The position numbers and the translations under genes are program-made. Shown in pieces: positions 17,892-53,288 of a stretch of DNA of 64,000 bases. The notes under the pieces are model-generated. The model did not search any database and had not been told where the DNA came from. It was given only the letters and a program-made list of their open reading frames with translations. Location of the stretch: the NCBI RefSeq assembly GCF_004323735.1, contig NZ_CP036455.1, positions 241,101-305,100 of the forward strand, given 5' to 3'. This DNA is from Streptomonospora litoralis. Lineage in GTDB: Bacteria > Actinomycetota > Actinomycetes > Streptosporangiales > Streptosporangiaceae. Position 1 is the stretch's first letter. Each line of letters opens with the position of its first letter.

Positions 17892-18077
17892 CTACAGGTC
17901 GCCGTCTCTTACCTCGGCGATGAACGCTTCCCACTCGGCGGCGGGGAAGGCGAGGTGGCCGCGGTCGCGGTGCTGGGTGTCGCGGACGAAGGTGTGGGGG
18001 CCTTCGGCGACCTCGACGCAGTTGGGCTCGTTAGCTCCGCTGTAGCTGCTCTTGTGCCAAATCATCTTAGAGTTCAT
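17892..18077 (-). CDS. DUF397-family small protein (the Streptomyces-type partner of XRE/DUF5753 regulators)
   Basis: MNSKMIWHKSSYSGANEPNCVEVAEGPHTFVRDTQ... is a textbook DUF397 motif. The ATG is embedded in the last codons of the upstream XRE gene. Confidence 0.75.
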   Translation of the reverse strand: MNSKMIWHKSSYSGANEPNCVEVAEGPHTFVRDTQHRDRGHLAFPAAEWEAFIAEVRDGDL

Positions 18078-18865
18078 CCCTCATTTTCTTCAGCAAGGCC
18101 AAGGATTCCGTCGGAGAGAGGGACTCGGCTTGGAGGTCGCCGAAGAAGCTGACCAGGGCTGCGGCCTCAGACGGGTTCTCCTTCACCGCGTGGCCTCCCA
18201 TGTGGGAGACATGCACGATCTGCCGCCCTCCCTCCAGAGTCATGATGCGAAACCCTCCGGTGGCGATCGGTCGCCAGGGAGCATACCCAGGGAGGATCAT
18301 GACGATGGCTTTCTCCGCCTCGGCGAGCTGGCGTATGTGGTCGTACTGCTCGCGCATGACATCGGCCGATTCGGATACGCGCCCGAGGACTACTTCGTCG
18401 ATCACGACGCGCACCCGTACCTCCGACTTCAAGCTGCCCAGGCGGGCAAGTCGAGCAGCGACGGCCTTCTCGGAAACGCCGCTGGAATCGTAGGCCCTCT
18501 TGAAAACCCAGCGGATGTAGCCATCCGCCTGGAGTAGCCCAGGGATCAAGACGGGATGGTATTCCCTGATCTCGGCGGCCTGTTGTTCGAGGGCCAGAAA
18601 ATCCACCCACTCCGGGGGTATGTCTCCCGTGCCCTCGATGTCGCGCCATAGCTGATGGAGGATCTGTCCCGTAGACAGGACCTCGTCAAGGTGGCGAGCT
18701 ATGTCCACACTTGGTTTTCTTGTCGCTTTTTCGTATTTGCTAATCGCTTGTCGGCTCATGCGTGCCAGGCGGTGCTAGCTGAGCCTGCGTTCGACCAGCT
18801 AGTTCGCGTTGTAGTCGAAGTTCCTGCCCCCATTGCACCCATTGCGGCTGCACCGGCTCAGTCAT
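18067..18865 (-). pseudogene. XRE-family (HTH + DUF5753-like) regulator, interrupted by a frameshift inside the HTH region (about 18745-18775)
   Basis: The C-terminal 230-aa frame reads ...MSRQAISKYEKATRKPSVDIARHLDEVLSTG.... The missing first half of the HTH (MTEPVQPQWVQWGQELRLQRELAGRTQAQLA) is encoded just upstream in another frame starting at the ATG at 18865. Restoring 1 nt gives ...AQLAHRLARMSRQAISKYE. Confidence 0.6.
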
Positions 18866-19710: not shown

Positions 19711-20235
19711 TCAGGCCGGGTGCGGGGCACCGGTCAACGAGGCGTCAACAGCAGCCGCCCGGCGAGCGCGAGTAGCACCGTGCCGGTTAAACACGGCGGC
19801 CTTGGGGTTGGCGAGTTGGACGACCAGACCTTCCGTGAACGCCACGGCGGTCGACCGCCTCCACGTCGGCGCGTCCTTTTCCTCCTCATCCGCGGGGTCG
19901 GCGGACCGCATGCCGCCGTCCCCGCCGGCGGAGAGGCGCCGCTCCTTCAGGACGGTGATCCACGAACGGATTCCCAGGTAGGCGAGGAACGCCGCGCCCA
20001 CGATCTGCAGCACCACATAAGCGGTGCTGGAGGCGGCTACGAGGGCGGCCACTCCGGCGCCGGCGGCTATCGCCCACAGGTAGATGCCGGTCTCAAGGCC
20101 GAGCACCGTCGCCACGCTCGCTCCGAACCCCCGCAGGGCCGCCCGCCGGAAGATCAGCGCCATAGCCGGTCCGGGGGAAGCGGAGATAAGCAGGACGGCG
20201 ACCAGAAACGCCGGGAGCACTTGAATGATCTCCAT
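19711..20235 (-). pseudogene. LysE/RhtB-family translocator, C-terminally truncated or frameshifted
   Basis: The N-terminal 150 aa look LysE-like (...ISASPGPAMALIF..., ...AFTEGLVVQLANPKAAVFN). The remaining about 60 aa (TM4-6) are replaced by RHGATRARRAAAVDAS... before the stop. Confidence 0.5.
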
Positions 20236-21154: not shown

Positions 21155-21219
21155 GCATCCATTGCGCGGAAATCACCACGTCCAAGGCCGATCCTTGGTG
21201 ATTTCCGCGCAATGGATGC
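21155..21219. repeat. Near-perfect 24-bp-stem inverted repeat (palindrome) in a divergent intergenic region
   Basis: gCATCCATTGCGCGGAAATCACCA cgtccaaggccgatcct TGGTGATTTCCGCGCAATGGATGc. A related half-site GTGATTTCCGCGCgTTGGAcG recurs at 23570-23590. Confidence 0.7.
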
Positions 21220-21522
21220 CGCAAGACCCGACATAAAGGACACCCGGGCGCCCCATCATCGCCGAGACTGTCTGTGGGACCGGTTTCGGCGGCGAAACCG
21301 TCTCTGGAGCCGTTCTCGGCGCCGTCAGTCGCGCCGCCGGCGGGCACCCTGCCCGATACGCGCGGGCCCGGCCATCCGGCGCCGTGGCTGCCGCTTTTCC
21401 TCCGGACCACCCGCCGCCTGGCAGCCCACAAGGCCGCCCAGTGGGCCCGAGGTCCACGAGTTCCGAGAGCTGTACGATTCGACTGCCCCCGGCTCCAGCG
21501 CTCCCTCAGAGAAGTCCCCGTG

Positions 21523-22224
21523 ATGGACTACTACCCGCATCCCTTCGTCTTGCTCGCCGCGAGCCTGCTCGCCCTGGCCGCAACGTTTCTCGCACCGCGC
21601 ATCAGGTACCGGCTCCGGGGTCGGCGATTCGCCGCCTGGGCGCAGCGGCACGGTTGGCGCTACACCGAGCGATCCTCAGGGCTGCTCGGCACGCTGTTCC
21701 CGGCGTTGCCCCCGGGCATGGCCGAGCACCACCGCCTGCTGCACGTCCTGACGGGCACCCACCGGAGCCGCTCGGTGGTCGCCTGCGACCACCTCGAACC
21801 CAATCTGATGACCGCACCCGGCAACACCGAGCGGAAGCACCTCGGGCGGGTCGTTGCGGTAGCGATCCAGGACTCCACCCCGCTATTGGACATCCGGGAC
21901 CGGAACGAGCCCTACCGCTCCGCACCGCCCGACACCGTCGGCCTCGACGAGATCAGCACGGGCGACCGGCGGTTCGACGGAGCCTTCCGGGTGTCCACCT
22001 CCGACGCAGTCTTCGCCCGCGCCGTGCTGACGCCGGAAATGACAGCCCGCCTGCTCACCCGTTCCGCAGTTCGCCTGGTCCCGCTGCGGTTCACCGGCGA
22101 CCACCTCATGTCCGTCCAGCCCCGGCGACTCGCCCCCGACCGGGTCCGCTCGATCGCGGACGATCTGATCGACATCCTGGAGGCAGTTCCCGGATCGGCG
22201 TGGGAGGTGGCCCCGCGCACCTGA
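21523..22224 (+). CDS. Hypothetical membrane protein
   Basis: MDYYPHPFVLLAASLLALAATFLAPRIRYRL.... One N-terminal TM helix. ORF 21274..22224 was trimmed to the first ATG after the long upstream extension. Confidence 0.45.
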   Translation: MDYYPHPFVLLAASLLALAATFLAPRIRYRLRGRRFAAWAQRHGWRYTERSSGLLGTLFPALPPGMAEHHRLLHVLTGTHRSRSVVACDHLEPNLMTAPGNTERKHLGRVVAVAIQDSTPLLDIRDRNEPYRSAPPDTVGLDEISTGDRRFDGAFRVSTSDAVFARAVLTPEMTARLLTRSAVRLVPLRFTGDHLMSVQPRRLAPDRVRSIADDLIDILEAVPGSAWEVAPRT

Positions 22225-22340
22225 TGCGTCCGGCGCTGTAGGTGAGTCGCTCGGTGCAATCGGGGGCTCGGGCAAGTGTGGTCGTTCCGGGACTGCGGAT
22301 GCGATCCTCCGCAGGCACACCATCGGCAGGAAGGCGCGGC

Positions 22341-22823
22341 ATGACGCGAATCGGGACGACCGGCCACTCGAACCTCTCCGCGGACAGCGTGCCGCCGATC
22401 CGGGCCGCGCTGGCCGACGTGCTCGCGCCCTACGCCGACGGCGACCTGGTCGGAGTCTCCTGCCTGGCGCGCGGCGCCGATCAGATCTTCGCCGAGGTGG
22501 TGCTGGAGGCGGGCGGGCTGCTGGAGGTGGTTCTCCCCTCGGTCGACTACCGCGAGGCCAAGGTCACGCCCGACAACCTCGCGCGCTTCGACGACCTGCT
22601 GATGCGCGCGGCCGCGGTGCGCTACATGCCGCACCGCACCGCCGGGCGTGAAGCCTACGAAGACGCGAACGAGGCGGTTCTGGGCGGCATCGACCGCCTC
22701 GTCGCCGTCTGGGACGGCCACCCTTCGGGTGGCAAGGGCGGCACCGGAGACGCCGTGGATGCTGCCCGGAACCGCGGTGTCCCGGTCGACGTCGTCTGGC
22801 CGGTCGGTGCCCGCCGGGAGTGA
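22341..22823 (+). CDS. Rossmann-like SLOG/LOG-DprA-superfamily protein (predicted nucleotide-binding). Assignment is tentative
   Basis: MTRIGTTGHSNL...LVGVSCLARGADQIFAEVVLEAGGLLEVVLP...LVAVWDGHPSGGKGGTGDAVDAARNRGVPVDVVWP. GGAAGG RBS 6 nt upstream of the ATG at 22341. Stop overlaps the next start (GTGA). Confidence 0.5.
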   Translation: MTRIGTTGHSNLSADSVPPIRAALADVLAPYADGDLVGVSCLARGADQIFAEVVLEAGGLLEVVLPSVDYREAKVTPDNLARFDDLLMRAAAVRYMPHRTAGREAYEDANEAVLGGIDRLVAVWDGHPSGGKGGTGDAVDAARNRGVPVDVVWPVGARRE

Positions 22824-23266
22824 GGGCCGACGTGGGCGAGTGCGGCGGGCAGACCGCCGAGCACTGCCCCGACTGGGGATACCCGTGCAAGCACGCCGCG
22901 GCGGTGCTGTACACCCTGGCGGACAGATTGGACCGGGACCCGTTCCTGCTGCTGGCCTGGCTGGGGCGCGACCGGGAGACGCTCCTGGAGTCGGTCCGCG
23001 CGGATGCCGAGGGTGGCGGTGATGACGTCGGTGACGGTGAGCAGGTCTCGGGGAGCGGGCTGAACGTGCGCGCCCGGCCGCTCGCCGAGTGCGTGGACGA
23101 CTTCTACGCGGCCGCGGACCCGGCGCGCCTGCCCGTGCCCAGCCGCAGCCTGGACCCGGTCTCCCACGCCGACACCGACATCCCCGGACTGGTCGCCGCG
23201 CTGACGCCGATGTACGAGCTGCTGGAGGCGGGGGGACCGGGCGCGTCGGAACGCGGCGACGCCTAA
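22820..23266 (+). CDS. SWIM-type zinc-finger protein
   Basis: CGGQTAEHCPDWGYPCKHAAAVLYTLA matches the SWIM CxCx(n)CxH pattern (...CPDW..PCKHaaAVL). GTG start overlapping the upstream stop. Confidence 0.65.
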   Translation: MRADVGECGGQTAEHCPDWGYPCKHAAAVLYTLADRLDRDPFLLLAWLGRDRETLLESVRADAEGGGDDVGDGEQVSGSGLNVRARPLAECVDDFYAAADPARLPVPSRSLDPVSHADTDIPGLVAALTPMYELLEAGGPGASERGDA

Positions 23267-23286: not shown

Positions 23287-23420
23287 TGAGAACGCCGATT
23301 CGCTGGGCGGCCTTGTTGGTCTGCCGGGTGGCGGGTGGTCTTCATGGGAGGCGGCGAGGGCGGCGGGGGGCTGGGCCCTGCGGTTGTCTGGTCGGGTGCC
23401 CGCCGGTGGCGGCGGCCGAC
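23287..23420 (+). repeat. GC-rich interspersed repeat, copy 1 (motif A GGCCTTGtTGGTCTGCCGGGTgGCGGGTGGTC, then motif B GGGCCCTGCGGTTgtCtGGTCGGGTGCCCGCCGGTG)
   Basis: About 88% identical to the minus-strand copy at 52420-52532. Further partial copies lie at 52019-52135 and 52632-52745. Confidence 0.7.
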
Positions 23421-23617
23421 GAAGGGAAGTACGGGGTGCTGGTCGCGGGCGGTGGCGCGTGCGAGGACGACCCGGCGCCGATATGTCCGATCTGCCGGGA
23501 CGGCGATGATCTGGCTCCGGTGGCGCTCACCGAGCGCGAGGATTTCGCCAGAGAACGGCCGCGGGTTCAGTGATTTCCGCGCGTTGGACGAGCCCAGCCG
23601 CATACCCGGCTACCCGG

Positions 23618-30671: not shown

Positions 30672-30992
30672 CGGTCGCCGAGCCGCCTCCGGCACGGCCG
30701 AGTGGACGCCGTCGGCCCGCACTCCCTGCGCGCAGGGGTTCGCGGAACCCGGTCGGCGGCCGCCGCGTCGTATCGGACACCGCATCGGCACGGCGGCGGG
30801 CTACCGCGCGGCGCCGTCCTATCCTCCGATCCTCCTATCCCCCAACCCCCTGAGCCCACTGAACATCCCCCGATCTCCCCGCGTTCGACGCGCTCCTTCA
30901 GTTCCGCGCCCGGACCGCGCCGCCCGCCGGCGCGGCGCTTGCGGGTGCGCCCGCGTCCGAAGCTCTCCCAGGATGAAAGAGAACACCGCCTG

Positions 30993-33008
30993 ATGGATAC
31001 GAGCACCATCACCGCAGGGGCAGGCGTGCTGCTTGCCGTCGCCCTGCTGATAGTCATCGGCCTGGTCATCACGGTCGCCCGCCTGTTCCGCAAGGTCGAA
31101 CAGGGCAAGGCGCTGATCGTCTCCAAAGTCCGCAAGGTCGACGTCACCTTCACCGGCGCCGTGGTCCTGCCGGTGCTGAACAAGGCCGAGACCATGGACA
31201 TCTCGGTCAAGACCATGGAGCTGGAGCGCAGTGGCAACGACGGTCTGATCTGCAAGGACAACATCCGCGCGGACATCAGTATCAAGTTCTTCGTCCGCGT
31301 CAACCCCACGGCCGAGGACGTGCTGCGCGTCGCCAAGCTCATCGGCGTGGAGAACGCCAGCAGCCAGGACAAGCTGCAGGACCTCTTCAGCGCGAAGTTC
31401 TCCGAGGCGTTGAAGACCGTCGGCAAGCACTTCGACTTCGAGGACCTCTATACCCGCCGCGCCGAATTCCGCGACCGGATCATGGAGGTCATCGGCCAGG
31501 ACCTGAACGGCTACGTCCTCGACGACGCGGCGATCGACTACCTGGAGCAGACCCCCAAGTCCCAGCTCGACACGGACAACATCCTCGACGCGCAGGGCAT
31601 CCTCAAGATCACCGAGCTGACCAAGCCCAAGAACGAGCGCACCCACCTGCTGGAGCAGGACGAGGCCAAGGAGAAGGACCGCCAGACCACCGAGGCGATG
31701 GAGGCGCGCGAGGAGCTGCGCCGCCGCCGCGAGGAGGCCGAGGCCAAGTCCTCCCGCGAGATCGAGACGCTGAAGGCGCGCGAGGAGGCCGAGACCCAGC
31801 GGGTGCAGGCCGAGGAGCGCCTCAAGTCCCACACCGCCCACATCCGCACCGACGAGCAGCTCGGTGTGCAGCGCGAGAACCAGCAGCGCGAGATCGCCGT
31901 GGCCGAGAAGAACCGCGAGCGCGTCATCTCCATCGAGAGTGAGCGCATCGAGAAGGACCGGATGCTGGAGGTCATCGGCCGCGACCGCGAGACCGAACTG
32001 GCGCGCATCGCCAAGGACAAGGAGGTCGAGGGCGACAAGCGCGAGGTCGCCGAGGTCGTGCGCGAGCGCGTCGCCGTCGAGAAGACGGTGGCCGAGCAGG
32101 AGGAGAACATCAAGAAGCTGCGCGCGGTCGAGGAGGCCGAGCGCGATCGCCAGGCCATCGTGATCCACGCCGAGGCCGAGGCCCAGCAGAACCTCGTCAA
32201 GGACATCAAGGCCGCCGAGGCCGCCGAGCAGGCCGCCAAGCACAAGTCCGCCGAGGAGCTGACCCTGGCCGAGGCGCGCCAGCAGGCCACCGAACTCGAC
32301 ACCCGGGCCAAGATCCGCCACGCCGAGGGGCTGCAGGCCGAGGCCGCAGCCGAGGGACTGGCCCAGGTCCAGGTGCGCGAGCAGGACGCCGAGGCGGTGG
32401 AGAAGGTGGGCCGCGCCGAGGCCGCCGTGGAGCGGGAGAAGGCGACCGCGGCAGCCGAGGGCGTCCGCGAGAAGCTCAAGGCCGAGGCCGAGGGCCTCAA
32501 CGAGAAGGCCGGCGCCATGGCCGCCCTCGACGAGGTCAGCCGCGAGCACGAGGAGTACCGCCTGCGCCTGGAGACCGAGAAGGACATCCGGATGGCCGGT
32601 ATCGACGTGCACCGCCAGGTCGCCGAGGCCCAGGCCACCGTGCTGGCCACCGGCCTGGAGAAGGCCGACATCGACATCGTCGGCGGCGACGGCATGTTCT
32701 TCGACCGCATGGTCAACTCCATCGGCATGGGCAAGGCGGTCGACGGGTTCATGGGCAACTCCGACGTCGCCCAGAGCCTGGCCGGGCCGTGGATGGACGG
32801 CTCGCAGAACTTCACCGAGGACCTCTCCCGCGCACTGGGTTCGGTCGGCACCGAGGACGTCAAGAACGTCACGATCTCGGCGGTGCTGCTGCGGCTGATC
32901 AACTCCGGCGGATCCGACAGCGAGAAGATGCGCGAGCTGCTGGACACCGCGCAGCGGCTCGGTGTCGACGAGGCGCCCGTGGCCGCCCTCGACGGCGTGA
33001 AGCGGTGA
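30993..33008 (+). CDS. Flotillin-like SPFH-domain protein (YqiK/FloT-like). N-terminal TM anchor, SPFH domain, and a long E/A/R/K-rich coiled-coil
   Basis: 671 aa. MDTSTITAGAGVLLAVALLIVIGLVITVARLFRKVEQGKALIVSKV..., followed by extensive EA-repeat coiled-coil (...REEAEAKSSREIETLKAREEAETQRVQAEERLK...). Confidence 0.85.
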   Translation: MDTSTITAGAGVLLAVALLIVIGLVITVARLFRKVEQGKALIVSKVRKVDVTFTGAVVLPVLNKAETMDISVKTMELERSGNDGLICKDNIRADISIKFFVRVNPTAEDVLRVAKLIGVENASSQDKLQDLFSAKFSEALKTVGKHFDFEDLYTRRAEFRDRIMEVIGQDLNGYVLDDAAIDYLEQTPKSQLDTDNILDAQGILKITELTKPKNERTHLLEQDEAKEKDRQTTEAMEAREELRRRREEAEAKSSREIETLKAREEAETQRVQAEERLKSHTAHIRTDEQLGVQRENQQREIAVAEKNRERVISIESERIEKDRMLEVIGRDRETELARIAKDKEVEGDKREVAEVVRERVAVEKTVAEQEENIKKLRAVEEAERDRQAIVIHAEAEAQQNLVKDIKAAEAAEQAAKHKSAEELTLAEARQQATELDTRAKIRHAEGLQAEAAAEGLAQVQVREQDAEAVEKVGRAEAAVEREKATAAAEGVREKLKAEAEGLNEKAGAMAALDEVSREHEEYRLRLETEKDIRMAGIDVHRQVAEAQATVLATGLEKADIDIVGGDGMFFDRMVNSIGMGKAVDGFMGNSDVAQSLAGPWMDGSQNFTEDLSRALGSVGTEDVKNVTISAVLLRLINSGGSDSEKMRELLDTAQRLGVDEAPVAALDGVKR

Positions 33009-33012
33009 GCCG

Positions 33013-36000
33013 GTGACCGACGTCGCGACCGAGGGGTCCGCCGCCGAGGCGGACCCCTCCCCGGACCCCGCCCAGGCGTCGCCCGGAAGCGCGCTCGACG
33101 CCGGAACCTACGACGTGCTGCGGTCGCGCCTGGCCGACCGGGCCCAAGAGCTGGCCCGGCGCGCCGAGGCGCTGAACAGCCGCCGCGTCGAGGTCTTCGG
33201 CGGCAACGAGCTGTCCCTGGTCGGCACCGCACGGATCCGCACCGAAAACAACTGCGTACCGCGCGACATCGTCTCGGTCGACGGGTACATGCTGTTCGGC
33301 TACAACGTCTACATCGGGCTCAAACCCGAGACCGCCGTAGGCGACGTGTTCTCGCTGCACACCTTCGTGCGCGGCACCGAGGAGACCTCCGGCGCGTTCC
33401 GCTTCGACGACGCCGACTTCGCGCGGCTGCCCGACCTGCTGTCGGCGCCGCAGTTCCAGCGCGACTTCGGCGAGCTGTACCGCTACTACCGCGAGACCCG
33501 GCTGATGCAGTTGCGGCGAGTGGAGGAGAAGCTGCTCGCCGTCTTCCAGACCGGCCCCCGCACTGAGGACGTGCGGGTGCTGCGCTGGAAGGTGAGCGCC
33601 GACGGCGCCGTCTCCTACCTGGACAACCGGGGCCAGCGTGACCACGTGTTCCCGCCGCCTTACGACTTCGAGTGGACGCCCACGACCCGCGACGACCACG
33701 TGCAGGGCCGCCACCCGCACATCTCGGTGCTGAACGAGCTGTTCGTCGAGACCGTGGGCGGCACCCTCACCGTCAAGATCGAGAACAACACCGAGGTGGG
33801 CGAGGGCGTCTACAGCGAACCCGTCGACGAGCCGCTGCAGAGCCTGGCCGACGCGGAGGTGTCCTACGCCCGCATCGGTGCGCTCGTCCTGCTGCGCGTG
33901 CTGCCCTACAACGAGTCAGCGGCCCGCTACCTGGTCTTCAACAGCCGAACCAAGGACGTGGTGCGGCTCGACGGCATCGGCCAGGCGTGCCGGCTCCTGC
34001 CCGAGGACCAGGGCGTCATCTTCCCCGGCGGCTACTACCTGGCCACGGGCACGGCGAAGACCTTCGACGCGAAGCTGGACGACCTGGAGTTCGAGAAGGT
34101 CGTGCGCTCGCCCAACGGCGAGGACGTGCTTTACGTCTTCCACGCCCGCAAGGAGGGCCGCAGCCTGCTGCTGCCCTACAACGTCATCCGCAAGGAGGTC
34201 GCCGCCCCGATCCCCTGCCACGGCTACTCGCTGTTCGACGACGGCACCCTGGTGGTATTCCGGGCGGCCTCCGAGGAGCCCACCCGGGTGCACCCCATGC
34301 AGGTGTGGCAGACGCCCTACGTCTCCGACGAGTACGCCGCGGCCCAGCCGACGGGCACCGGCCCGCTGGAGCGGGTGGGCAACGCCGAACTCGTGCGCGG
34401 GGTGTCCGACTGCCTGTCGGTGGCGCGCATGGTCGAGGAGATGACGCCGTCGACGCCGGTCTTCGAGGCGCTGATCGCCAACTGCAAGCGGGTGTTCGAC
34501 CACTACCCCTGGCTGGACGACACCGAGCTGGGCGACCTCCACGGTCCGCTCACGGAGGTCCGCGGCACCGCCGAACAGGTCCTCGACGAGTTCGAGAAGG
34601 TGCAGGCGCTCACCGGCCAGGCCGAGAGGGCCGTGCAGGAGGCCGCGGAACAGGTGGCCTCGCTGGTGCGGCGCTCGCGCGGCGAGACGCCGCGCACCGC
34701 CGAAGGCTGGGTGGGCCGGCTGACCGAGCTGCGCCGCGCCCAGGGGCACCTGGTCACGCTGCGCGAGATGCGCTACGTCGACACCGGCCGCGTCGACGGG
34801 TTGGACTCCTCGCTCGCCGACGAGCTGGACTCGGCGGGCCGGCGCGCAGTCGAGTTCCTGCAGGGCGAGGACGCGTTCAGCGCCTACCACACCGAAGTGG
34901 ACCGGCTCGTCGCCGACGCCGAGGCCATCGGCGCGGTGGCCGAAGCCGAACCGGTGGCGGCCCGCATCGCCGAGCAGACCGAGGGGCTGGAGATCGTCAC
35001 CGAGGTCGTCGGCTCCCTGGAGATCGCCGACGCCCGGGTGCGCACCGCCATCCTGGAGCGCATCGGCGAGGTGCTGGGCGGTGTGAACCGGGCGCGCGCC
35101 ACGCTGGAGGCGCGCCGCGGCGAGCTGCTGGACTCCGAGGGGCGGGCGGAGTTCGCCGCGGAGTTCGCTCTGCTGGGGCAGGCGGTCACCGGCGCGCTGG
35201 CGGCGGCCGACAGCCCCGACCGCTGCGACGAGCAGCTCGGCCGGCTGATGCTGCAGATGGAGAACCTGGAGTCGCGCTTCGCGGAGTTCGACGGCTTCCT
35301 GGAGGAGCTCTCCGCCAAGCGGGACGACGTCTACGAGGCGTTCTCCGCGCGCAAGCAGGCGCTGCTGGACGAACGCGCGCGCCGCGCCGACCGGCTGGTG
35401 GAGTCGGCGGAGCGGGTGCTGTCCACCGTCACGCGCCGCGTCGCCGGGCTGGACTCCGCGGACGAGGTCAACACCTACTTCGCCTCCGACCCGATGGTGG
35501 CCAAGCTCCGCTCCAGTGCCGAGGAGCTGCGCGGCCTCGGTGACACGGTGCGCGCCGAGGAGCTGGAGGGGCGGCTCAAGGCCGCCCGCCAGGAGGCCGG
35601 CCGGGCCCTGCGTGACCGCGCCGACCTCTACGACGGCGGCGGCGACACCATCCGACTGGGGCGGCACCGCTTCGCCGTCAACACCCAGCCCTTGGATCTG
35701 ACCCTGGTGCCTGGCGACGGAGCGATGTCGCTGAGCATCACCGGCACCGACTTCCGGCTGCCGGTGACCGATCCCGACTTCCTGGCCACCCGCCCGCTTT
35801 GGGAGCGCTCGCTGGTCTCGGAGAGCCCCGAGGTCTACCGCGCCGAGTACCTGGCGGTGTCGATCCTGGCCGACGCAGGGGTCGGCGCGGGCCCGGTGCC
35901 GTCACTCGCCGAGCTCGACCGGGCGGCCGCCGAGGGCGGGGACGACCCCGGAGCCGGACTGCTGCCCATCGTGCGCTCGGCCGCCGAGGAGCGCTACGAC

Positions 36001-38073
36001 GAGGGGTACGAACGCGGAGTCCACGACCACGACGCCGCGCAGCTGCTCGCTGCGCTGCTGCGTCTGCACACCGGTGCCGGGTTGCTGCGCTATCCCGGTC
36101 CGGACCGCGCCGCGGCCCAGCTGTACTGGGCCTTCGGCGCAGCCGAGGACGCCAAGTCCGCCTGGGCCACCCGGGCCGCCTCGCTCGCGCGCGCCCGCGA
36201 CGCCTTCGGCGGGCATCGCTCACCGGCGATCGGCGCGCTGTGCGCCGAGCTGGACGCCGCCGTCACCGGGTTCGCGGCCGAAACAGGCGTGCCGCAGCCG
36301 GACGGCGGTACCGGCATGGCGGGGGAGTACCTGTTCGAGGAGCTGGCCCAGGGCGGCGCGTTCGTCACCGCCGCCGGAGCCCGCACGCTGCTGGACCGCT
36401 TCGGCCGCGCACTCGGCGGCGGCGCCGCGGCGTCGCGTCAGGACTTCGAGCGCGACGTCCGTTCGCTGGGCACCGACCTGGCCGCCCGCCACCAGCTGGT
36501 GACGGCGTGGCTGGAGGCGTATCTGGCGAACGCGCAGCACACCGGCGACGCCTGGGACCTCGCCGAGGCGGCGGCGATCGAGCTGTGCGGCACCGCGGTG
36601 AACCGGCGTGAATCCTCTGCGGCGCTGAGCACCGAGGTCACCGGTCTGCTGGGGGCGCACCCGCGCGTCTCCGGCCGCCGGATGACGCTGCGGCTGGACG
36701 AGGTGCTGCCACGGGTGCGCCGCTTCCGCGCCGAGGAGGTCCCGGCCTTCCGCGACTACCAGCGCCGCCGCCACGAGCTGGTCGCCCGCGAGCGCACCCG
36801 CCTGCGGCTGGAGGAGTACCGCCCCTCGGTGATGAGCGGGTTCGTGCGCAACCGGCTGCTGGACGAGGCCTACCTGCCGCTGATCGGCGACAACCTCGCC
36901 AAGCAGCTCGGCGCGGCCGGCGACGACAAGCGCACCGACCAGAGCGGCCTGCTGCTGCTCATCTCACCGCCCGGCTACGGCAAGACCACGCTGATGGAGT
37001 ACGTCGCCAGCCGGCTCGGCCTGGTGTTCGTCAAGGTCGACGGCCCCGCGCTGGGGCACGCGGTCACTTCGCTGGACCCCGCCGAAGCGCCGGACGCCAC
37101 CGCCCGCCAGGAGGTCGAGAAGATCAACTTCGCCCTGGAGATGGGTAGCAACGCGCTGCTGTACCTGGACGACATTCAGCACACCGACCCGGAGCTGCTG
37201 CAGAAGTTCATCTCGCTGTGCGACGGCCAGCGGCGCATGGAGGGCGTGTGGGAGGGCCGCACCCGCACCTACGACCTGCGGGGCAAGCGGTTCGCGGTCT
37301 GTATGGCAGGCAACCCCTACACCGAGCAGGGCAGCCGGTTCCGCGTCCCCGACATGCTGGCCAACCGCGCCGACGTCTACAACCTCGGCGACGTCCTCTC
37401 CGGCCGCGACGAGCTGTTCGCGCTCAGCTACATCGAGAACGCACTGACGTCCAACCCGGTGCTGGCGCCGCTGTCCACCCGCGAGCGCGGCGACATCGAG
37501 CTGCTGGTGCGCATGGCCAAGGGCGACGAATCGGTGCGCGCCGACCAGCTGTCCCACCCCTACTCGCGGGTGGAGCTGGAGCAGGTGCAGGCGGTGCTGG
37601 CCAAACTGGTGCGCGTCCAGCAGGTGGTGCTGGCCGCCAACCAGACCTACATCGCCTCGGCGGCCCAGGCCGACGAGTCCCGCACCGAGCCGCCGTTCCG
37701 GCTGCAGGGCTCCTACCGCAACATGAACCGGCTGGCCGAGAAAGTCGTCCCGGTGATGAACGAGACCGAGTTGGAGGCCGCAATCGACGACCACTACCTC
37801 GGCGAAGCCCAGACCCTCACCTCCGGCGCGGAGGCCAACCTGCTCAAGCTGGCCGAAATTCGCGGCACACTCACCGCCGAGCAGGCCGAGCGCTGGGAGC
37901 AGGTCAAGGCCGCCTACCGCCGCGCGAAGGCCCTCGGCGGCGACGGCGACGACCCGATGAGCCGGGCCGTGGGTGCGGTGGGCCTGCTGGCCGACCGCGT
38001 CGGCGCGGTGGAGGAGGCCATCGAGCGGGCGGCGGGGGCGTTCGTCGCACGGGATCCGGGACAGGGCCGATAG
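33013..38073 (+). CDS. Giant 1,686-aa protein with a C-terminal AAA+ P-loop ATPase domain. It is flotillin-associated and of unknown function
   Basis: GTG start 4 nt after the flotillin stop. Walker A LLLISPPGYGKTT (about 36964-36990). Walker B LLYLDDIQHTD (about 37159-37191), and RVPDMLANRADVYNLG. The N-terminal roughly 550 aa is beta-rich and the central region is helical. Confidence 0.8.
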   Translation: MTDVATEGSAAEADPSPDPAQASPGSALDAGTYDVLRSRLADRAQELARRAEALNSRRVEVFGGNELSLVGTARIRTENNCVPRDIVSVDGYMLFGYNVYIGLKPETAVGDVFSLHTFVRGTEETSGAFRFDDADFARLPDLLSAPQFQRDFGELYRYYRETRLMQLRRVEEKLLAVFQTGPRTEDVRVLRWKVSADGAVSYLDNRGQRDHVFPPPYDFEWTPTTRDDHVQGRHPHISVLNELFVETVGGTLTVKIENNTEVGEGVYSEPVDEPLQSLADAEVSYARIGALVLLRVLPYNESAARYLVFNSRTKDVVRLDGIGQACRLLPEDQGVIFPGGYYLATGTAKTFDAKLDDLEFEKVVRSPNGEDVLYVFHARKEGRSLLLPYNVIRKEVAAPIPCHGYSLFDDGTLVVFRAASEEPTRVHPMQVWQTPYVSDEYAAAQPTGTGPLERVGNAELVRGVSDCLSVARMVEEMTPSTPVFEALIANCKRVFDHYPWLDDTELGDLHGPLTEVRGTAEQVLDEFEKVQALTGQAERAVQEAAEQVASLVRRSRGETPRTAEGWVGRLTELRRAQGHLVTLREMRYVDTGRVDGLDSSLADELDSAGRRAVEFLQGEDAFSAYHTEVDRLVADAEAIGAVAEAEPVAARIAEQTEGLEIVTEVVGSLEIADARVRTAILERIGEVLGGVNRARATLEARRGELLDSEGRAEFAAEFALLGQAVTGALAAADSPDRCDEQLGRLMLQMENLESRFAEFDGFLEELSAKRDDVYEAFSARKQALLDERARRADRLVESAERVLSTVTRRVAGLDSADEVNTYFASDPMVAKLRSSAEELRGLGDTVRAEELEGRLKAARQEAGRALRDRADLYDGGGDTIRLGRHRFAVNTQPLDLTLVPGDGAMSLSITGTDFRLPVTDPDFLATRPLWERSLVSESPEVYRAEYLAVSILADAGVGAGPVPSLAELDRAAAEGGDDPGAGLLPIVRSAAEERYDEGYERGVHDHDAAQLLAALLRLHTGAGLLRYPGPDRAAAQLYWAFGAAEDAKSAWATRAASLARARDAFGGHRSPAIGALCAELDAAVTGFAAETGVPQPDGGTGMAGEYLFEELAQGGAFVTAAGARTLLDRFGRALGGGAAASRQDFERDVRSLGTDLAARHQLVTAWLEAYLANAQHTGDAWDLAEAAAIELCGTAVNRRESSAALSTEVTGLLGAHPRVSGRRMTLRLDEVLPRVRRFRAEEVPAFRDYQRRRHELVARERTRLRLEEYRPSVMSGFVRNRLLDEAYLPLIGDNLAKQLGAAGDDKRTDQSGLLLLISPPGYGKTTLMEYVASRLGLVFVKVDGPALGHAVTSLDPAEAPDATARQEVEKINFALEMGSNALLYLDDIQHTDPELLQKFISLCDGQRRMEGVWEGRTRTYDLRGKRFAVCMAGNPYTEQGSRFRVPDMLANRADVYNLGDVLSGRDELFALSYIENALTSNPVLAPLSTRERGDIELLVRMAKGDESVRADQLSHPYSRVELEQVQAVLAKLVRVQQVVLAANQTYIASAAQADESRTEPPFRLQGSYRNMNRLAEKVVPVMNETELEAAIDDHYLGEAQTLTSGAEANLLKLAEIRGTLTAEQAERWEQVKAAYRRAKALGGDGDDPMSRAVGAVGLLADRVGAVEEAIERAAGAFVARDPGQGR

Positions 38074-52018: not shown

Positions 52019-52760
52019 GTTAAGAACGCCGGTCTGCCGGGAAGCGGGTCGCCTGGCGGGGAACGACGGGCACCGAGGACAGCGCCGGGTGGGGCCCTGC
52101 GGTTGCCGGGTCGGGTGCTCGCCGGTGGCGCGCCCGGCGGGGGCGGCGTTCGGCCGCCGTAAACTCGGCGCGGCTTGACCCGTCTATCGCGAACTTATGG
52201 TCGCAGGAAAGCGTATTCCGCGGCCATAAGTTCGCGATCATCGCCGGATGAACCGGCATAGGGGACCTACCGGCGCCGGTAGGTCGGCTGGGTACCGCCG
52301 TGTCCCCTGCCGGGACCGGTGCGGGGATGGCACCTCGGGGCGACACCGAAGCCGATGCCACCGCACGTACGTGCAACTCGTGGTCATGATCCGGCCGCAT
52401 GGCCCCCGCCAACTGCCCCGCCGCGCGCCGGCACCGGCGGGCACCCGACCCGGTAACCGCAGGCCCCTCCCACCGCCGCCCTCGCCGCTTCCCAGCGAGA
52501 CCACCCGCTACCCGGCAGACCATCAAGGCCACCCAGCGGCCCCGGGCCGCCCCGTCGGGTGCTCGACCGGCGGACATCCGGACCGGTGATCGCGGGTCCG
52601 GCCCCGCTGCCATCGTTGCCGCCGCCTTTCCGATAGACCACCCGCTACCCGGCAGACCATCAAGGCCGCACAGCAGACCGGAGCCGCCTCGCCGGCCGCC
52701 GACACCGGCGGGCACCCGGCCCGGCGAACGCGGGCCCGGCCATCCGCTGTTCCCGCTGCC
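52019..52760. repeat. Cluster of GC-rich interspersed repeats (motif A/B family): at least three full or partial units in both orientations
   Basis: Plus-strand partial unit at 52019-52135. Minus-strand units: motif A at 52499-52530 with motif B at 52432-52467, and motif A at 52636-52667 with motif B at 52701-52741. All are related to 23287-23420. Long ORFs across this block (for example 52020..52922) are low-complexity repeat artefacts. Confidence 0.7.
52186..52238. repeat. 19-bp-stem hairpin/palindrome with an AT-containing loop, embedded in the repeat block
   Basis: ATCGCGAACTTATGGtCGC aggaaagcgtattcc GCGgCCATAAGTTCGCGAT (one G-T mismatch). Confidence 0.6.
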
Positions 52761-53288
52761 GCGTTCCCTTCGAGTCCGCCCGGCACCCGGCAGGCCGACA
52801 AAGCCGACCACAAGGCCAACGGCAAGGCCCACGACAAAGCCGCCCAGCCGATTGGAGCGCCCCTCCCCACGCACCGCCACCGGCGGTTCCCGTTCCCCCC
52901 GACCAGCGGGCCCGGCCGCCACCGGCCCCCGGTGCCCGCTGCTCCCCGTCGATCAGCCCGCCGCCCCACCAGGGCAAGTCCGCGTAGCGGATTCGAGCCG
53001 CACGGCCCGGCCGCCCATGGGAGCCGGATCGATCCAGCACTTCTTAACACGGCTCGGTGCTCCGGTCCGCCGGTACATTTCCGTCGCGTGGCCGCGGCGC
53101 CCGCCCCACGTCCGAAACTGGGTCCGCCGGGTGTTCCAGTGGTCAGACCGGACAGGGCGTGCGAACATCGGGGCGTGCACTATCACGGGTACTTCTGGCG
53201 CGGATCCGACGCAGACCGCTCGCGCAGGGCACGTGACGCCCATCCCGACGGACCCCATTTCACCTCCGCCGATGTGCCCCCCGTCAAG

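What the first reader, a model, noticed from the sequence alone, without database searches (positions are those of the whole stretch)
22341..23266. Overlapping SLOG-like (Rossmann, nucleotide-binding) and SWIM zinc-finger gene pair inside the variable island
Seen: a 160-aa protein (GTTGHSNL … LARGADQIFAEVVLEAGG … VWDGHPSGGKGGTGDAV) whose stop overlaps (GTGA) the start of a 148-aa SWIM zinc-finger protein (CGGQTAEHCPDWGYPCKHAAAVL). Established: SLOG/LOG-DprA Rossmann domains bind or process nucleotides and recur in nucleotide-signalling conflict systems. SWIM fingers mediate DNA or protein binding. Inference: a two-component module. The sensor or binder may be the SWIM protein, with the SLOG protein acting as the nucleotide-processing effector. 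It sits in horizontally acquired DNA next to repeats.
Basis: partly seen in the sequence, partly recalled or inferred. Interest (0 to 1): 0.6.

Follow-up and report, generated by a model that had tools for sequence, protein, structure and literature searches.

The report
Orphan SLOG gene beside SWIM remnant
A real, well-conserved nucleotide-binding-type (SLOG) gene happens to sit against the broken-off back half of an unrelated zinc-finger gene, so the "gene pair" is an accident of genome rearrangement and not a two-part system.

Summary
Both ORFs exist in this Streptomonospora litoralis window. ORF A (22341-22823, 160 aa) is a genuine gene. It has more than 1000 close homologues, dN/dS of 0.10-0.20, and a confident model (pLDDT 94) whose best structural matches are YpsA, DprA, ShosA and LOG. 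The SLOG call is therefore right, although no Pfam, NCBIfam or PADLOC model detects it. ORF B (22820-23266) is the 3' relic of a ~250-aa SWIM gene. Homology to intact genes starts abruptly at nt 22865, inside the CxC...CxH motif, so the first Cys and the ~125 N-terminal residues are gone. The four intact homologues examined all lie directly downstream of a ~1000-1100-aa DUF3670-SNF2 helicase, and the window has no such helicase. None of 101 loci carrying an ORF A homologue has a SWIM gene nearby. In 44 of 89 genomic loci the neighbour is instead an upstream XRE-HTH/TPR regulator whose end abuts or overlaps the SLOG start. That regulator is missing here. The pair is best read as an accidental juxtaposition: an orphan YpsA-like SLOG gene fused to a gene fragment in a decayed, repeat-flanked region. 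The regulator-SLOG module seen elsewhere, partly in predicted prophages, is a modest uncharacterised lead.

The parts
22341..22823 (+). ORF A: 160-aa stand-alone SLOG-superfamily (YpsA/DprA-like) protein, here without its usual partner
   Evidence: Identical to a Streptomonospora litoralis hypothetical protein and has 1073 homologues. The AF2 model has pLDDT 94. Foldseek gives YpsA, DprA, ShosA and LOG as best matches. dN/dS is 0.10-0.20. Invariant residues sit in the loops after beta1, beta2, beta3 and beta5.
22327..22340 (+). Ribosome-binding region (GGAAGG). DNA homology to other loci starts here at the earliest, and it is all that is left of the 3' end of the usual upstream partner gene.
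   Evidence: blastn homology to 80+ loci starts at 22327-22342. Other partner-less loci keep about 40 nt of the partner's 3' end. No partner homologue exists anywhere in the window.
22824..22864 (+). Junction filler of unknown origin between the end of ORF A homology and the start of SWIM homology. It contains the hypothetical GTG starts of ORF B.
   Evidence: ORF A DNA homology ends at 22816-22830 in most loci. Nucleotide identity to intact SWIM genes is 0.19-0.39 up to 22864 and 0.92 from 22865.
22865..23266 (+). 3' relic of a ~250-aa SNF2-associated SWIM zinc-finger gene, equivalent to residues ~125 to the end. The reading frame is still open.
   Evidence: Homologues are 222-258 aa, and ORF B aligns only to their C-terminal half. 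The first Cys of CxC is replaced. The breakpoint is sharp. Pfam SWIM matches only profile positions 17-37 of 38.
21323..21441 (+). Copy of a dispersed GC-rich ~120-nt repeat, on the left flank of the three-ORF segment
23303..23421 (-). Inverted copy of the same ~120-nt repeat, on the right flank just after ORF B
21523..22224 (+). Upstream neighbour: membrane-anchored DUF3137-like ORF. It is context only and is not a conserved neighbour of ORF A.
   Evidence: Pfam DUF3137 scores 26.4 bits against a cutoff of 26.1. There is no tblastn hit in any ORF A locus.

Best explanation
The two ORFs are an accidental juxtaposition, not a system. ORF A is an intact, selectively maintained member of an uncharacterised family of stand-alone YpsA-like SLOG proteins that has no Pfam model. 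By inference from the fold and the conserved pocket, it binds, and possibly cleaves at the ribosyl N-glycosidic bond, an adenine-nucleotide or NAD/ADP-ribose-derived small molecule. The pocket is built from the loops after beta1 (T7-G8-H9), beta2 (R44-G45-x-D47, the YpsA-type GxD/E motif), beta3 (D69-Y70-R71) and beta5 (W124-D125-G126 ... G133-G134-T135-x-D137). The family's usual context is a two-gene unit in which a ~450-500-aa XRE-HTH + TPR regulator lies immediately upstream. That regulator's stop often overlaps the SLOG start. In this genome the regulator has been lost and only the SLOG gene remains. ORF B is what is left of a different operon, a DUF3670-SNF2 helicase followed by a ~250-aa SWIM protein. 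A rearrangement removed the helicase and the first ~125 codons of the SWIM gene and broke it between the two Cys codons of the CxC motif, at nt 22864/22865. What is shown: the fold, selection on ORF A, truncation of ORF B, the native partners of both genes, and the lack of any conserved SLOG-SWIM pairing. What is inferred: the ligand class and any catalytic activity of ORF A, the functional link between regulator and SLOG, and the order of the rearrangement events.
For: The SLOG fold rests on the AF2 model (pLDDT 94, pTM 0.90), Foldseek PDB matches to YpsA, DprA, ShosA, LOG, MCP and ThsA, and BFVD matches to actinophage DprA-like and YspA-type SLOG proteins. Purifying selection is shown by dN/dS of 0.10-0.20 against 11 homologues, with and without the partner. 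The invariant residues lie in the loops at the C-terminal ends of the strands. The GxD/E motif is the predicted substrate-binding signature of the YpsA clade (PMC6459960). DNA homology of the window to more than 80 loci is confined to 22327-22830, which is the ORF A coding sequence alone. Of 89 genomic loci, 44 have the full upstream HTH-TPR partner, 6 have remnants, 36 have none and 3 lie at a contig edge. The partner's ORF ends at or 4 nt past the SLOG start in several loci. Partner-less copies keep ~40 nt of the partner's 3' end. The partner is absent from the window. ORF B aligns only to residues ~123 to the end of 237-258-aa SWIM proteins. The breakpoint at 22865 is sharp and the first Cys is lost. 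The N-terminal half and the SNF2 helicase are absent from all 64 kb. All four intact homologues examined sit directly after a DUF3670-SNF2-Helicase_C gene, sharing 1-4 nt with its end. No SWIM homologue (E <= 0.01) or C.CP...CKH motif occurs in 101 loci with ORF A homologues. Two other Streptomonospora genomes have ORF A in entirely different neighbourhoods.
Against: ORF B is still an uninterrupted 148-codon frame with strong coding bias (GC3 0.92). Its identity to intact homologues (44-53%) is in the same range as those homologues show to each other. Its possible GTG start overlaps the ORF A stop, so it could be translated, and a new role for the C-terminal half cannot be excluded. In 72% GC DNA a long open frame is only weak evidence for this. 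The arrangement exists in a single sequenced genome, so its age and stability cannot be judged. Only the 80 best of 507 genomic relatives were inspected. No experiment addresses the ligand. Neither the position of ORF A's G45-x-D47 relative to the YpsA GxD/E motif nor its equivalence to the LOG catalytic motif was checked by explicit structural superposition.
Confidence: 0.8

Rival explanations
1. One reading: ORF A and ORF B form a functional, translationally coupled two-component module. The SLOG protein handles a nucleotide signal, and the shortened SWIM protein acts as DNA/protein binder or sensor.
For: The stop of ORF A and a GTG of ORF B overlap by 4 nt. ORF B has an intact frame, high GC3 and no excess divergence. 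No terminator was detected between them. Relatives of the SLOG family occur in conflict-type fusions with TIR and AAA/STAND-type NTPase domains.
Against: The pairing occurs in 0 of 101 other loci. ORF B lacks the first zinc ligand and the whole N-terminal domain. Its family's conserved partner is an SNF2 helicase. The public annotation uses a later start with no overlap. PADLOC finds nothing for either protein.
Confidence: 0.06
2. ORF A is an ordinary housekeeping paralogue of LOG (cytokinin-type nucleotide phosphoribohydrolase) or DprA (a DNA-uptake/RecA loader).
For: The fold resembles both. Some database names read 'DNA recombination-mediator protein A' or 'DUF1273'. There is a weak PHROG DprA-like hit, E 0.005.
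Against: There is no hit to Pfam Lysine_decarbox, DNA_processg_A or YpsA at E <= 1, and none to NCBIfam. A profile search of PDB sequences finds no DprA or LOG. The protein has only the 160-aa core and none of the extra domains of the 213-353-aa DprA chains matched in PDB. The genomic context differs in every genome, some genomes have two copies, and some copies lie in predicted prophages. The LOG-type PGGxGTxxE motif appears here as GGxGGTxD.
Confidence: 0.06
3. ORF A is itself a decaying orphan. After losing its regulator partner it is a non-functional passenger in a degraded region.
For: The partner is lost. The region contains other truncated genes, LysE and SWIM. It is flanked by dispersed repeats.
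Against: ORF A is full length with every family-invariant residue retained. dN/dS is 0.10-0.20 even against other partner-less copies. About 40% of the loci examined lack the partner yet keep an intact 160-aa gene.
Confidence: 0.08

Closest known systems
YpsA (Bacillus subtilis; PDB 2NX2; Pfam PF06908/DUF1273), the 'YpsA proper' clade of the SLOG superfamily
   Same: YpsA is the best structural match (Foldseek E 1.8e-9, TMq 0.79). It is a stand-alone single-domain protein of similar size. ORF A has a GxD motif (G45-A-D47, invariant) at the start of helix 2, like the YpsA GxD/E substrate-binding signature (PMC6459960). Some database sources label homologues DUF1273.
   Different: Sequence identity is only 15%, and the Pfam YpsA model does not hit ORF A at E <= 1. 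A distant relative reaches only E 0.004, below the cutoff. ORF A has its own invariant motifs (DYR after beta3, WDG and GGTxD after beta5). The genomic partner differs: an HTH-TPR regulator instead of the gpsB neighbourhood. No link to cell division is known.
DprA/Smf and DprA-like defence or phage proteins (ShosA of Shosta, PDB 8ZVA; Streptomyces phage Mildred21 'DprA-like')
   Same: The Rossmannoid core is the same. The 'ARGAD' loop resembles the DprA A-x-G-I-D loop (from my own knowledge of the motif).
   Different: ORF A has none of the additional domains of the 213-353-aa DprA chains matched in PDB. There is no ShosT-like phosphoribosyltransferase next to it, no PADLOC hit and no Pfam DNA_processg_A hit.
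SLOG sensor/processing domains of NAD/ADPr-centred conflict systems (ThsA SLOG of Thoeris; viral YpsA-like SLOGs; 'SLOG sensor-activated systems' of PMC9503650)
   Same: The superfamily is the same. Family members are fused to TIR_2, RyR/TrkA_N and AAA/STAND-type NTPase domains. The regulator-SLOG pair occurs in predicted prophages. The literature predicts that viral YpsA-like SLOGs sense or degrade ADPr derivatives and notes HTH fusions.
   Different: The structural match to ThsA SLOG is weak (E 0.02, TM ~0.48). The window holds no TIR, SIR2 or other signal generator or effector next to ORF A. Here the gene stands alone.
Actinobacterial SNF2-associated SWIM proteins (~250 aa, encoded directly downstream of a DUF3670-SNF2-Helicase_C helicase)
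   Same: ORF B is 44-53% identical to their C-terminal half, including CPDWGYPCKHAAAVLY.
   Different: ORF B lacks residues 1 to ~125 and the first Cys of the finger. It has no SNF2 helicase upstream.
RNPP-type HTH + TPR regulators (PlcR, phage Rap/AimR-like), for the partner that is missing here
   Same: The partner elsewhere has an N-terminal XRE HTH plus a C-terminal TPR solenoid. PlcR and a phage Rap are among the fold hits. It matches a phage 'transcriptional regulator' family, phrog_10886, at E 1e-52.
   Different: The fold hits are generic TPR proteins with weak scores (best E ~6e-4). There is no evidence of a signalling peptide. The partner is not present in this window.

Membership tests
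SLOG superfamily (Smf/DprA-LOG Rossmannoid domains) | Three-layer alpha/beta Rossmannoid core with a parallel sheet, and significant structural similarity to founding members (DprA, LOG, YpsA, MoCo carrier) | tested here: met
   The model shows a beta-alpha repeat with 6 strands at pLDDT 94. Foldseek probability is 1.00 to YpsA, DprA, LOG and MCP, with E from 1.8e-9 to 7e-4.
SLOG superfamily (Smf/DprA-LOG Rossmannoid domains) | Conserved polar or glycine-rich ligand-contacting loops after strand 1 and at the later strand ends | tested here: met
   Invariant or near-invariant residues are T7-G8-H9, R44-G45-x-D47, D69-Y70-R71, W124-D125-G126 and G133-G134-T135-x-D137. All fall in loops that follow strands in the model.
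YpsA family (Pfam PF06908) | Match to the family HMM above the gathering score | tested here: not met
   ORF A has no Pfam hit at E <= 1. A distant relative, P0178, scores 17.6 bits against a cutoff of 27.7.
YpsA family (Pfam PF06908) | GxD/E substrate-binding motif (G53/E55 in B. subtilis YpsA) | tested here: inconclusive
   G45-A-D47 is invariant at the beta2-helix2 junction. Its equivalence to YpsA G53/E55 is inferred from position and was not checked by residue-level superposition.
LOG (Pfam Lysine_decarbox) and DprA (Pfam DNA_processg_A) | Family HMM match. For LOG, also the PGGxGTxxE catalytic motif. | tested here: not met
   There is no Pfam or NCBIfam hit and no DprA or LOG in the PDB profile search. 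The motif here reads GGKGGTGDAV.
SWIM zinc finger (Pfam PF04434) | Complete CxCxnCxH zinc-binding signature | tested here: not met
   ORF B scores 21.7 bits (cutoff 19.6) but covers only profile positions 17-37 of 38. It reads E-H-C...C-K-H, and the first Cys is replaced by Glu.
SNF2-associated SWIM protein family (~250 aa) | Full-length protein with the N-terminal ~120-aa domain, encoded immediately downstream of a DUF3670-SNF2 helicase | tested here: not met
   ORF B aligns to residues ~123 to the end only. Neither the N-terminal half nor an SNF2 gene is present in the window. All four intact homologues examined have the helicase.
Known SLOG-containing defence systems (Thoeris ThsA/ThsB; Shosta ShosA/ShosT) | Presence of the cognate partner (TIR ThsB, SIR2 or TM effector; PRTase ShosT) and a match to defence-system HMMs | tested here: not met
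   PADLOC gives no hit for ORF A or ORF B. The neighbours are a DUF3137-like ORF, the SWIM relic, an ADH and a TetR.
HTH-TPR regulator + SLOG two-gene module (defined here) | A ~450-500-aa XRE-HTH/TPR gene ending at or overlapping the SLOG start | tested here: not met
   The module is present in 44 of 89 genomic loci and 5 viral contigs. The window has no partner homologue. At most the last ~14 nt before the ATG are homologous to other loci.

The most novel reading that the evidence does not exclude
The HTH-TPR regulator + YpsA-like SLOG pair, of which this gene is an orphaned half, may be an uncharacterised signalling switch of actinomycetes that is partly prophage-borne. In this reading the SLOG protein senses or destroys an NAD/ADP-ribose-derived messenger, for example a cADPR isomer made by TIR defence systems, and so controls the regulator's output (lysogeny, anti-defence or development). 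Stand-alone copies such as ORF A would then act as autonomous signal sponges or degraders.
Probability: 0.2. Interest if true: 0.55.

Novelty: new member of a known kind. Interest (0 to 1): 0.22.

Why it matters
An attractive "two-component conflict module" turns out to be a gene fragment abutting an unrelated gene, so effort should not go into the SLOG-SWIM pairing. It also shows that a 4-nt overlap and two suggestive domains in high-GC DNA do not establish an operon. The useful by-product is a large SLOG family (8568 50%-identity clusters with E <= 1e-3) that has no Pfam model. It is under strong purifying selection, is usually coupled to an XRE-HTH/TPR regulator, sometimes sits in predicted prophages and is sometimes fused to TIR or AAA/STAND-type NTPase domains. 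That family is a reasonable candidate for work on NAD/ADPr-derived signalling in actinomycetes, but the module is not present in this window.

Tried and rejected
- **Family searches for ORF A.** Pfam, NCBIfam and PADLOC found nothing. A profile search against PDB sequences gave only chance hits with E > 0.7. PHROGs gave only weak hits, a 'GTP-binding domain' at 1.6e-5 and DprA-like at 0.005.
- **afdb50 fold library.** It was unavailable.
- **Insertion test.** I asked whether ORF A had simply inserted into an intact SWIM gene. tblastn with 8 full-length SWIM proteins found no N-terminal half anywhere in the 64 kb, so the event was a deletion or replacement, not a simple insertion.
- **Synteny with intact SNF2-SWIM loci.** There is no SNF2 helicase or cydAB in the window. 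Only a truncated LysE matched.
- **Alternative conserved neighbours.** Among the partner-less ORF A loci none was found, and the DUF3137-like neighbour is not conserved.
- **Flanking repeats.** The ~120-nt repeat is not a known RNA: the only Rfam hit in the scanned region is a chance mir-142 match on the separate perfect hairpin at 21155-21219. The repeat alignment shows no covariation.
- **Promoter/terminator scan.** It was uninformative. No tRNA is present.
- **Literature.** Burroughs et al. 2015 (NAR), the SLOG classification paper, was not held. I therefore could not check whether this exact clade was already named. Literature searches on SNF2-SWIM operons and on orf1590/nsdA found nothing usable.
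- **'55.5 kDa and 49.5 kDa sporulation protein' label.** One partner homologue carries this name. It is a pipeline-transferred name, so I treat it as a lead only.

Full report
**Source and observation.** The window comes from the Streptomonospora litoralis chromosome. ORF A is 100% identical to a hypothetical protein on a 5.72-Mb contig of that species. Both ORFs exist as described. ORF A runs 22341-22823 (+), starts with ATG and encodes 160 aa. ORF B runs 22820-23266 (+), starts with GTG and encodes 148 aa. The 4-nt GTGA overlap depends on taking GTG 22820 as the start. The public annotation gives a 144-aa product (P0121), which I infer starts at 22832 and does not overlap.

**ORF A is a real gene under selection.**
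- It has 1073 homologues with E <= 1e-3, typically 160 aa. Identity is 60-85% across Nocardiopsis, Thermobifida, Saccharopolyspora, Pseudonocardia and Actinomadura.
- An exhaustive HMM search of 1.84 billion cluster representatives finds 8568 clusters with E <= 1e-3. Nearly all of the listed best hits are ~160-aa stand-alone proteins.
- dN/dS against eleven homologues is 0.10-0.20.
- No Pfam, NCBIfam or PADLOC model detects it. A profile search of PDB sequences is also empty.

**ORF A has a SLOG fold.** A 29-sequence alignment gives an AlphaFold model with pLDDT 94 and pTM 0.90. It has a Rossmann-like beta-alpha topology.
- Foldseek against the PDB ranks B. subtilis YpsA first (2nx2, E 1.8e-9, TM 0.79). 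DprA, ShosA, LOG, the MoCo carrier protein and, weakly, the ThsA SLOG domain and TRPM2 follow. This is the membership list of the SLOG superfamily.
- Against predicted viral structures, the named matches include a Streptomyces-phage 'DprA-like' protein and YspA-type SLOG proteins of actinophages.
- The invariant residues are T7-G8-H9, R44-G45-x-D47, D69-Y70-R71, W124-D125-G126 and G133-G134-T135-x-D137. All lie in loops at the C-terminal ends of strands, the usual ligand face of a Rossmannoid domain.
- G45-x-D47 matches the form of the GxD/E motif described as the YpsA-clade substrate-binding signature (PMC6459960). I did not verify the equivalence by superposition.

The protein is not a member of the Pfam YpsA, LOG or DprA families as currently modelled.

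**ORF B is a gene fragment.**
- Its 12 homologues outside this genome are 222-258-aa SWIM proteins. ORF B aligns only to their residues ~123 to the end.
- Codon-by-codon comparison with four intact genes shows nucleotide identity of 0.19-0.39 up to nt 22864 and 0.92 from nt 22865. The breakpoint therefore lies between the two Cys codons of the CxC motif.
- Intact proteins read C-x-C-PDWGYPCKH and ORF B reads E-H-C-PDWGYPCKH. Pfam accordingly matches only positions 17-37 of the 38-position SWIM model.
- The missing N-terminal ~125 residues are not encoded anywhere in the 64 kb.
- The four intact homologues whose loci I fetched each sit directly after a 1002-1096-aa DUF3670 + SNF2 + Helicase_C gene and share 1-4 nt with its end. 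The window has no such helicase.
- The remnant is still an open frame with GC3 of 0.92. It is no more diverged than intact family members are from each other. The truncation may therefore be recent, and expression cannot be excluded.

**The pairing is not conserved.**
- I fetched 80 genomic loci from a scan of one genome per species, which found 507 relatives. I added loci from specific genomes and 30 viral contigs.
- In 101 loci with an ORF A homologue there is no SWIM homologue at E <= 0.01, and no C.CP...CKH motif within 2.5 kb.
- DNA similarity between the window and these loci is confined to 22327-22830, the ORF A coding sequence itself.
- In two other Streptomonospora genomes the gene lies in entirely different neighbourhoods.

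**ORF A's real partner elsewhere.**
- In 44 of 89 genomic loci a ~450-500-aa gene ends at the SLOG start, and in several its ORF runs 4 nt past it. Six more loci have remnants of it, 36 have none and 3 lie at a contig edge.
- Many partner-less loci retain ~40 nt of its 3' end. This argues that partner-less copies arose by loss of the partner.
- The partner has an XRE-type HTH (Pfam HTH_31) and TPR repeats. Its model shows HTH, a disordered linker and a TPR solenoid. Fold matches are generic TPR proteins, with PlcR and a phage Rap among the weaker ones.
- It matches phage family phrog_10886 ('transcriptional regulator') at E 1e-52.
- Five IMG/VR contigs carry the regulator-SLOG pair. Two of the three whose flanking ORFs I scanned have CHAP or DUF5047 genes nearby.
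- The partner is absent from this window.
- Some members of the SLOG family are fused to TIR_2, RyR/TrkA_N or an AAA/STAND-type NTPase domain.
- Iyer et al. 2022 (PMC9503650) report that viral SLOG domains are mostly of the YpsA-like clade. They predict that these domains sense or degrade ADP-ribose-derived messengers, and they note fusions to HTH domains.

**Local context.** The segment lies in a patchy, partly decayed stretch. From left to right it contains:
- a DUF397 ORF and an adjacent DUF5753 ORF in 59.8% GC DNA;
- a truncated LysE gene;
- a perfect 24-nt-arm hairpin at 21155-21219;
- a DUF3137-like membrane ORF;
- ORF A, then the SWIM relic;
- an ADH gene and a TetR gene.

Two inverted copies of a dispersed ~120-nt GC-rich repeat (21323-21441 and 23303-23421) bracket the DUF3137-like/ORF A/ORF B segment. 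Four further copies lie at 52.0-52.8 kb. The SWIM breakpoint is not at a repeat. No tRNA is present, and none of the ORFs I scanned between about 10 and 38 kb hit an integrase or transposase family.

**Interpretation.** With confidence of about 0.8, the 'pair' is an orphan YpsA-like SLOG gene that a rearrangement placed against the 3' half of an SNF2-associated SWIM gene.

For ORF A itself I commit to a ligand-binding, possibly N-glycosidase, role on an adenine-nucleotide or NAD/ADPr-derived molecule. Because selection persists on partner-less copies, it would function autonomously here. This step rests on fold, pocket conservation, fusions and literature precedent, and has not been shown.

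The rivals each score below 0.1:
- a newly formed functional SLOG + short-SWIM pair;
- a housekeeping LOG or DprA paralogue;
- a decaying passenger gene.

**Novelty and interest.** The feature as proposed is not a system. ORF A is a new member of a known superfamily, from a family with no Pfam model. The regulator-SLOG module found elsewhere is a modest lead. Overall interest is low, about 0.2.

Noticed in passing
window 21323-21441 (+), 23303-23421 (-), 52031-52139 (-), 52424-52544, 52549-52673, 52689-52810 (+); L008 8880-8962: This is a dispersed GC-rich repeat family of ~120 nt, with cores ACCGGCGGGCACCCG and AGACCACCCGCnACCCGGCAGACCAnCAAGGCCGCCCAG. There are at least 6 copies in 64 kb, three of them in tandem. 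Two inverted copies bracket the DUF3137-like/ORF A/ORF B segment. One copy lies ~400 nt downstream of the ORF A homologue in Murinocardiopsis flavida. There is no Rfam match and no covariation, and the function is unknown.
   Followed up: partly
window 21155-21219: A perfect inverted repeat with 24-nt arms and a 17-nt spacer (GCATCCATTGCGCGGAAATCACCA...) lies in the intergenic DNA upstream of the left repeat copy. A related 19-mer recurs at 23570-23588. The Rfam mir-142 hit there is a chance match to a hairpin.
   Followed up: partly
L001 4515-5984, L003 4629-5972 and 42 further loci (e.g. L010, L017, L041), always just upstream of the ORF A homologue: A conserved two-gene unit: a ~450-500-aa XRE-HTH + TPR regulator whose end abuts, and in several loci overlaps by 4 nt, the start of the 160-aa SLOG gene. 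It is present in 44 of 89 genomic loci and 5 predicted-prophage contigs. The regulator matches phrog_10886 at E 1e-52. One homologue carries the transferred name '55.5 kDa and 49.5 kDa sporulation protein'.
   Followed up: partly
proteins P0145, P0155, P0167, P0223 (relatives of ORF A): Some members of the same SLOG family are fused to TIR_2 (613 aa), to TrkA_N + RyR (759 aa), to RyR (393 aa), or to an AAA/STAND-type NTPase (1187 aa). These architectures are typical of nucleotide-signalling conflict systems.
   Followed up: partly
window 19711-20235 (-): This LysE-family exporter gene appears truncated. It matches residues 1-139 of a 216-aa homologue at 70% identity, and Pfam covers profile positions 3-116 of 193. 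It is a second gene remnant 2.6 kb from the SWIM relic.
   Followed up: partly
window 17892-18077 (-) and 18067-18759 (-): A DUF397 ORF and an adjacent DUF5753 ORF form a WhiJ/BldB-type pair (my own attribution) in the lowest-GC kilobase of the window (59.8%). No HTH was detected in the DUF5753 ORF, so it may be N-terminally shortened.
   Followed up: no
window 30702-33008 (+) and 33013-38073 (+): A 768-aa SPFH/Band_7 protein is followed by a 1686-aa protein with DUF3686 ('ATPase involved in DNA repair', E 2e-218), DUF7902 and an AAA_5 domain. This large conserved pair was not examined further.
   Followed up: no
L090, L092, L093, L094 (loci of intact SWIM homologues): In all four Nocardiopsaceae loci examined, a 1002-1096-aa DUF3670-SNF2-Helicase_C gene shares 1-4 nt with the following ~250-aa SWIM gene. 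This is a conserved helicase-SWIM operon. In two of the loci it follows cydAB.
   Followed up: partly
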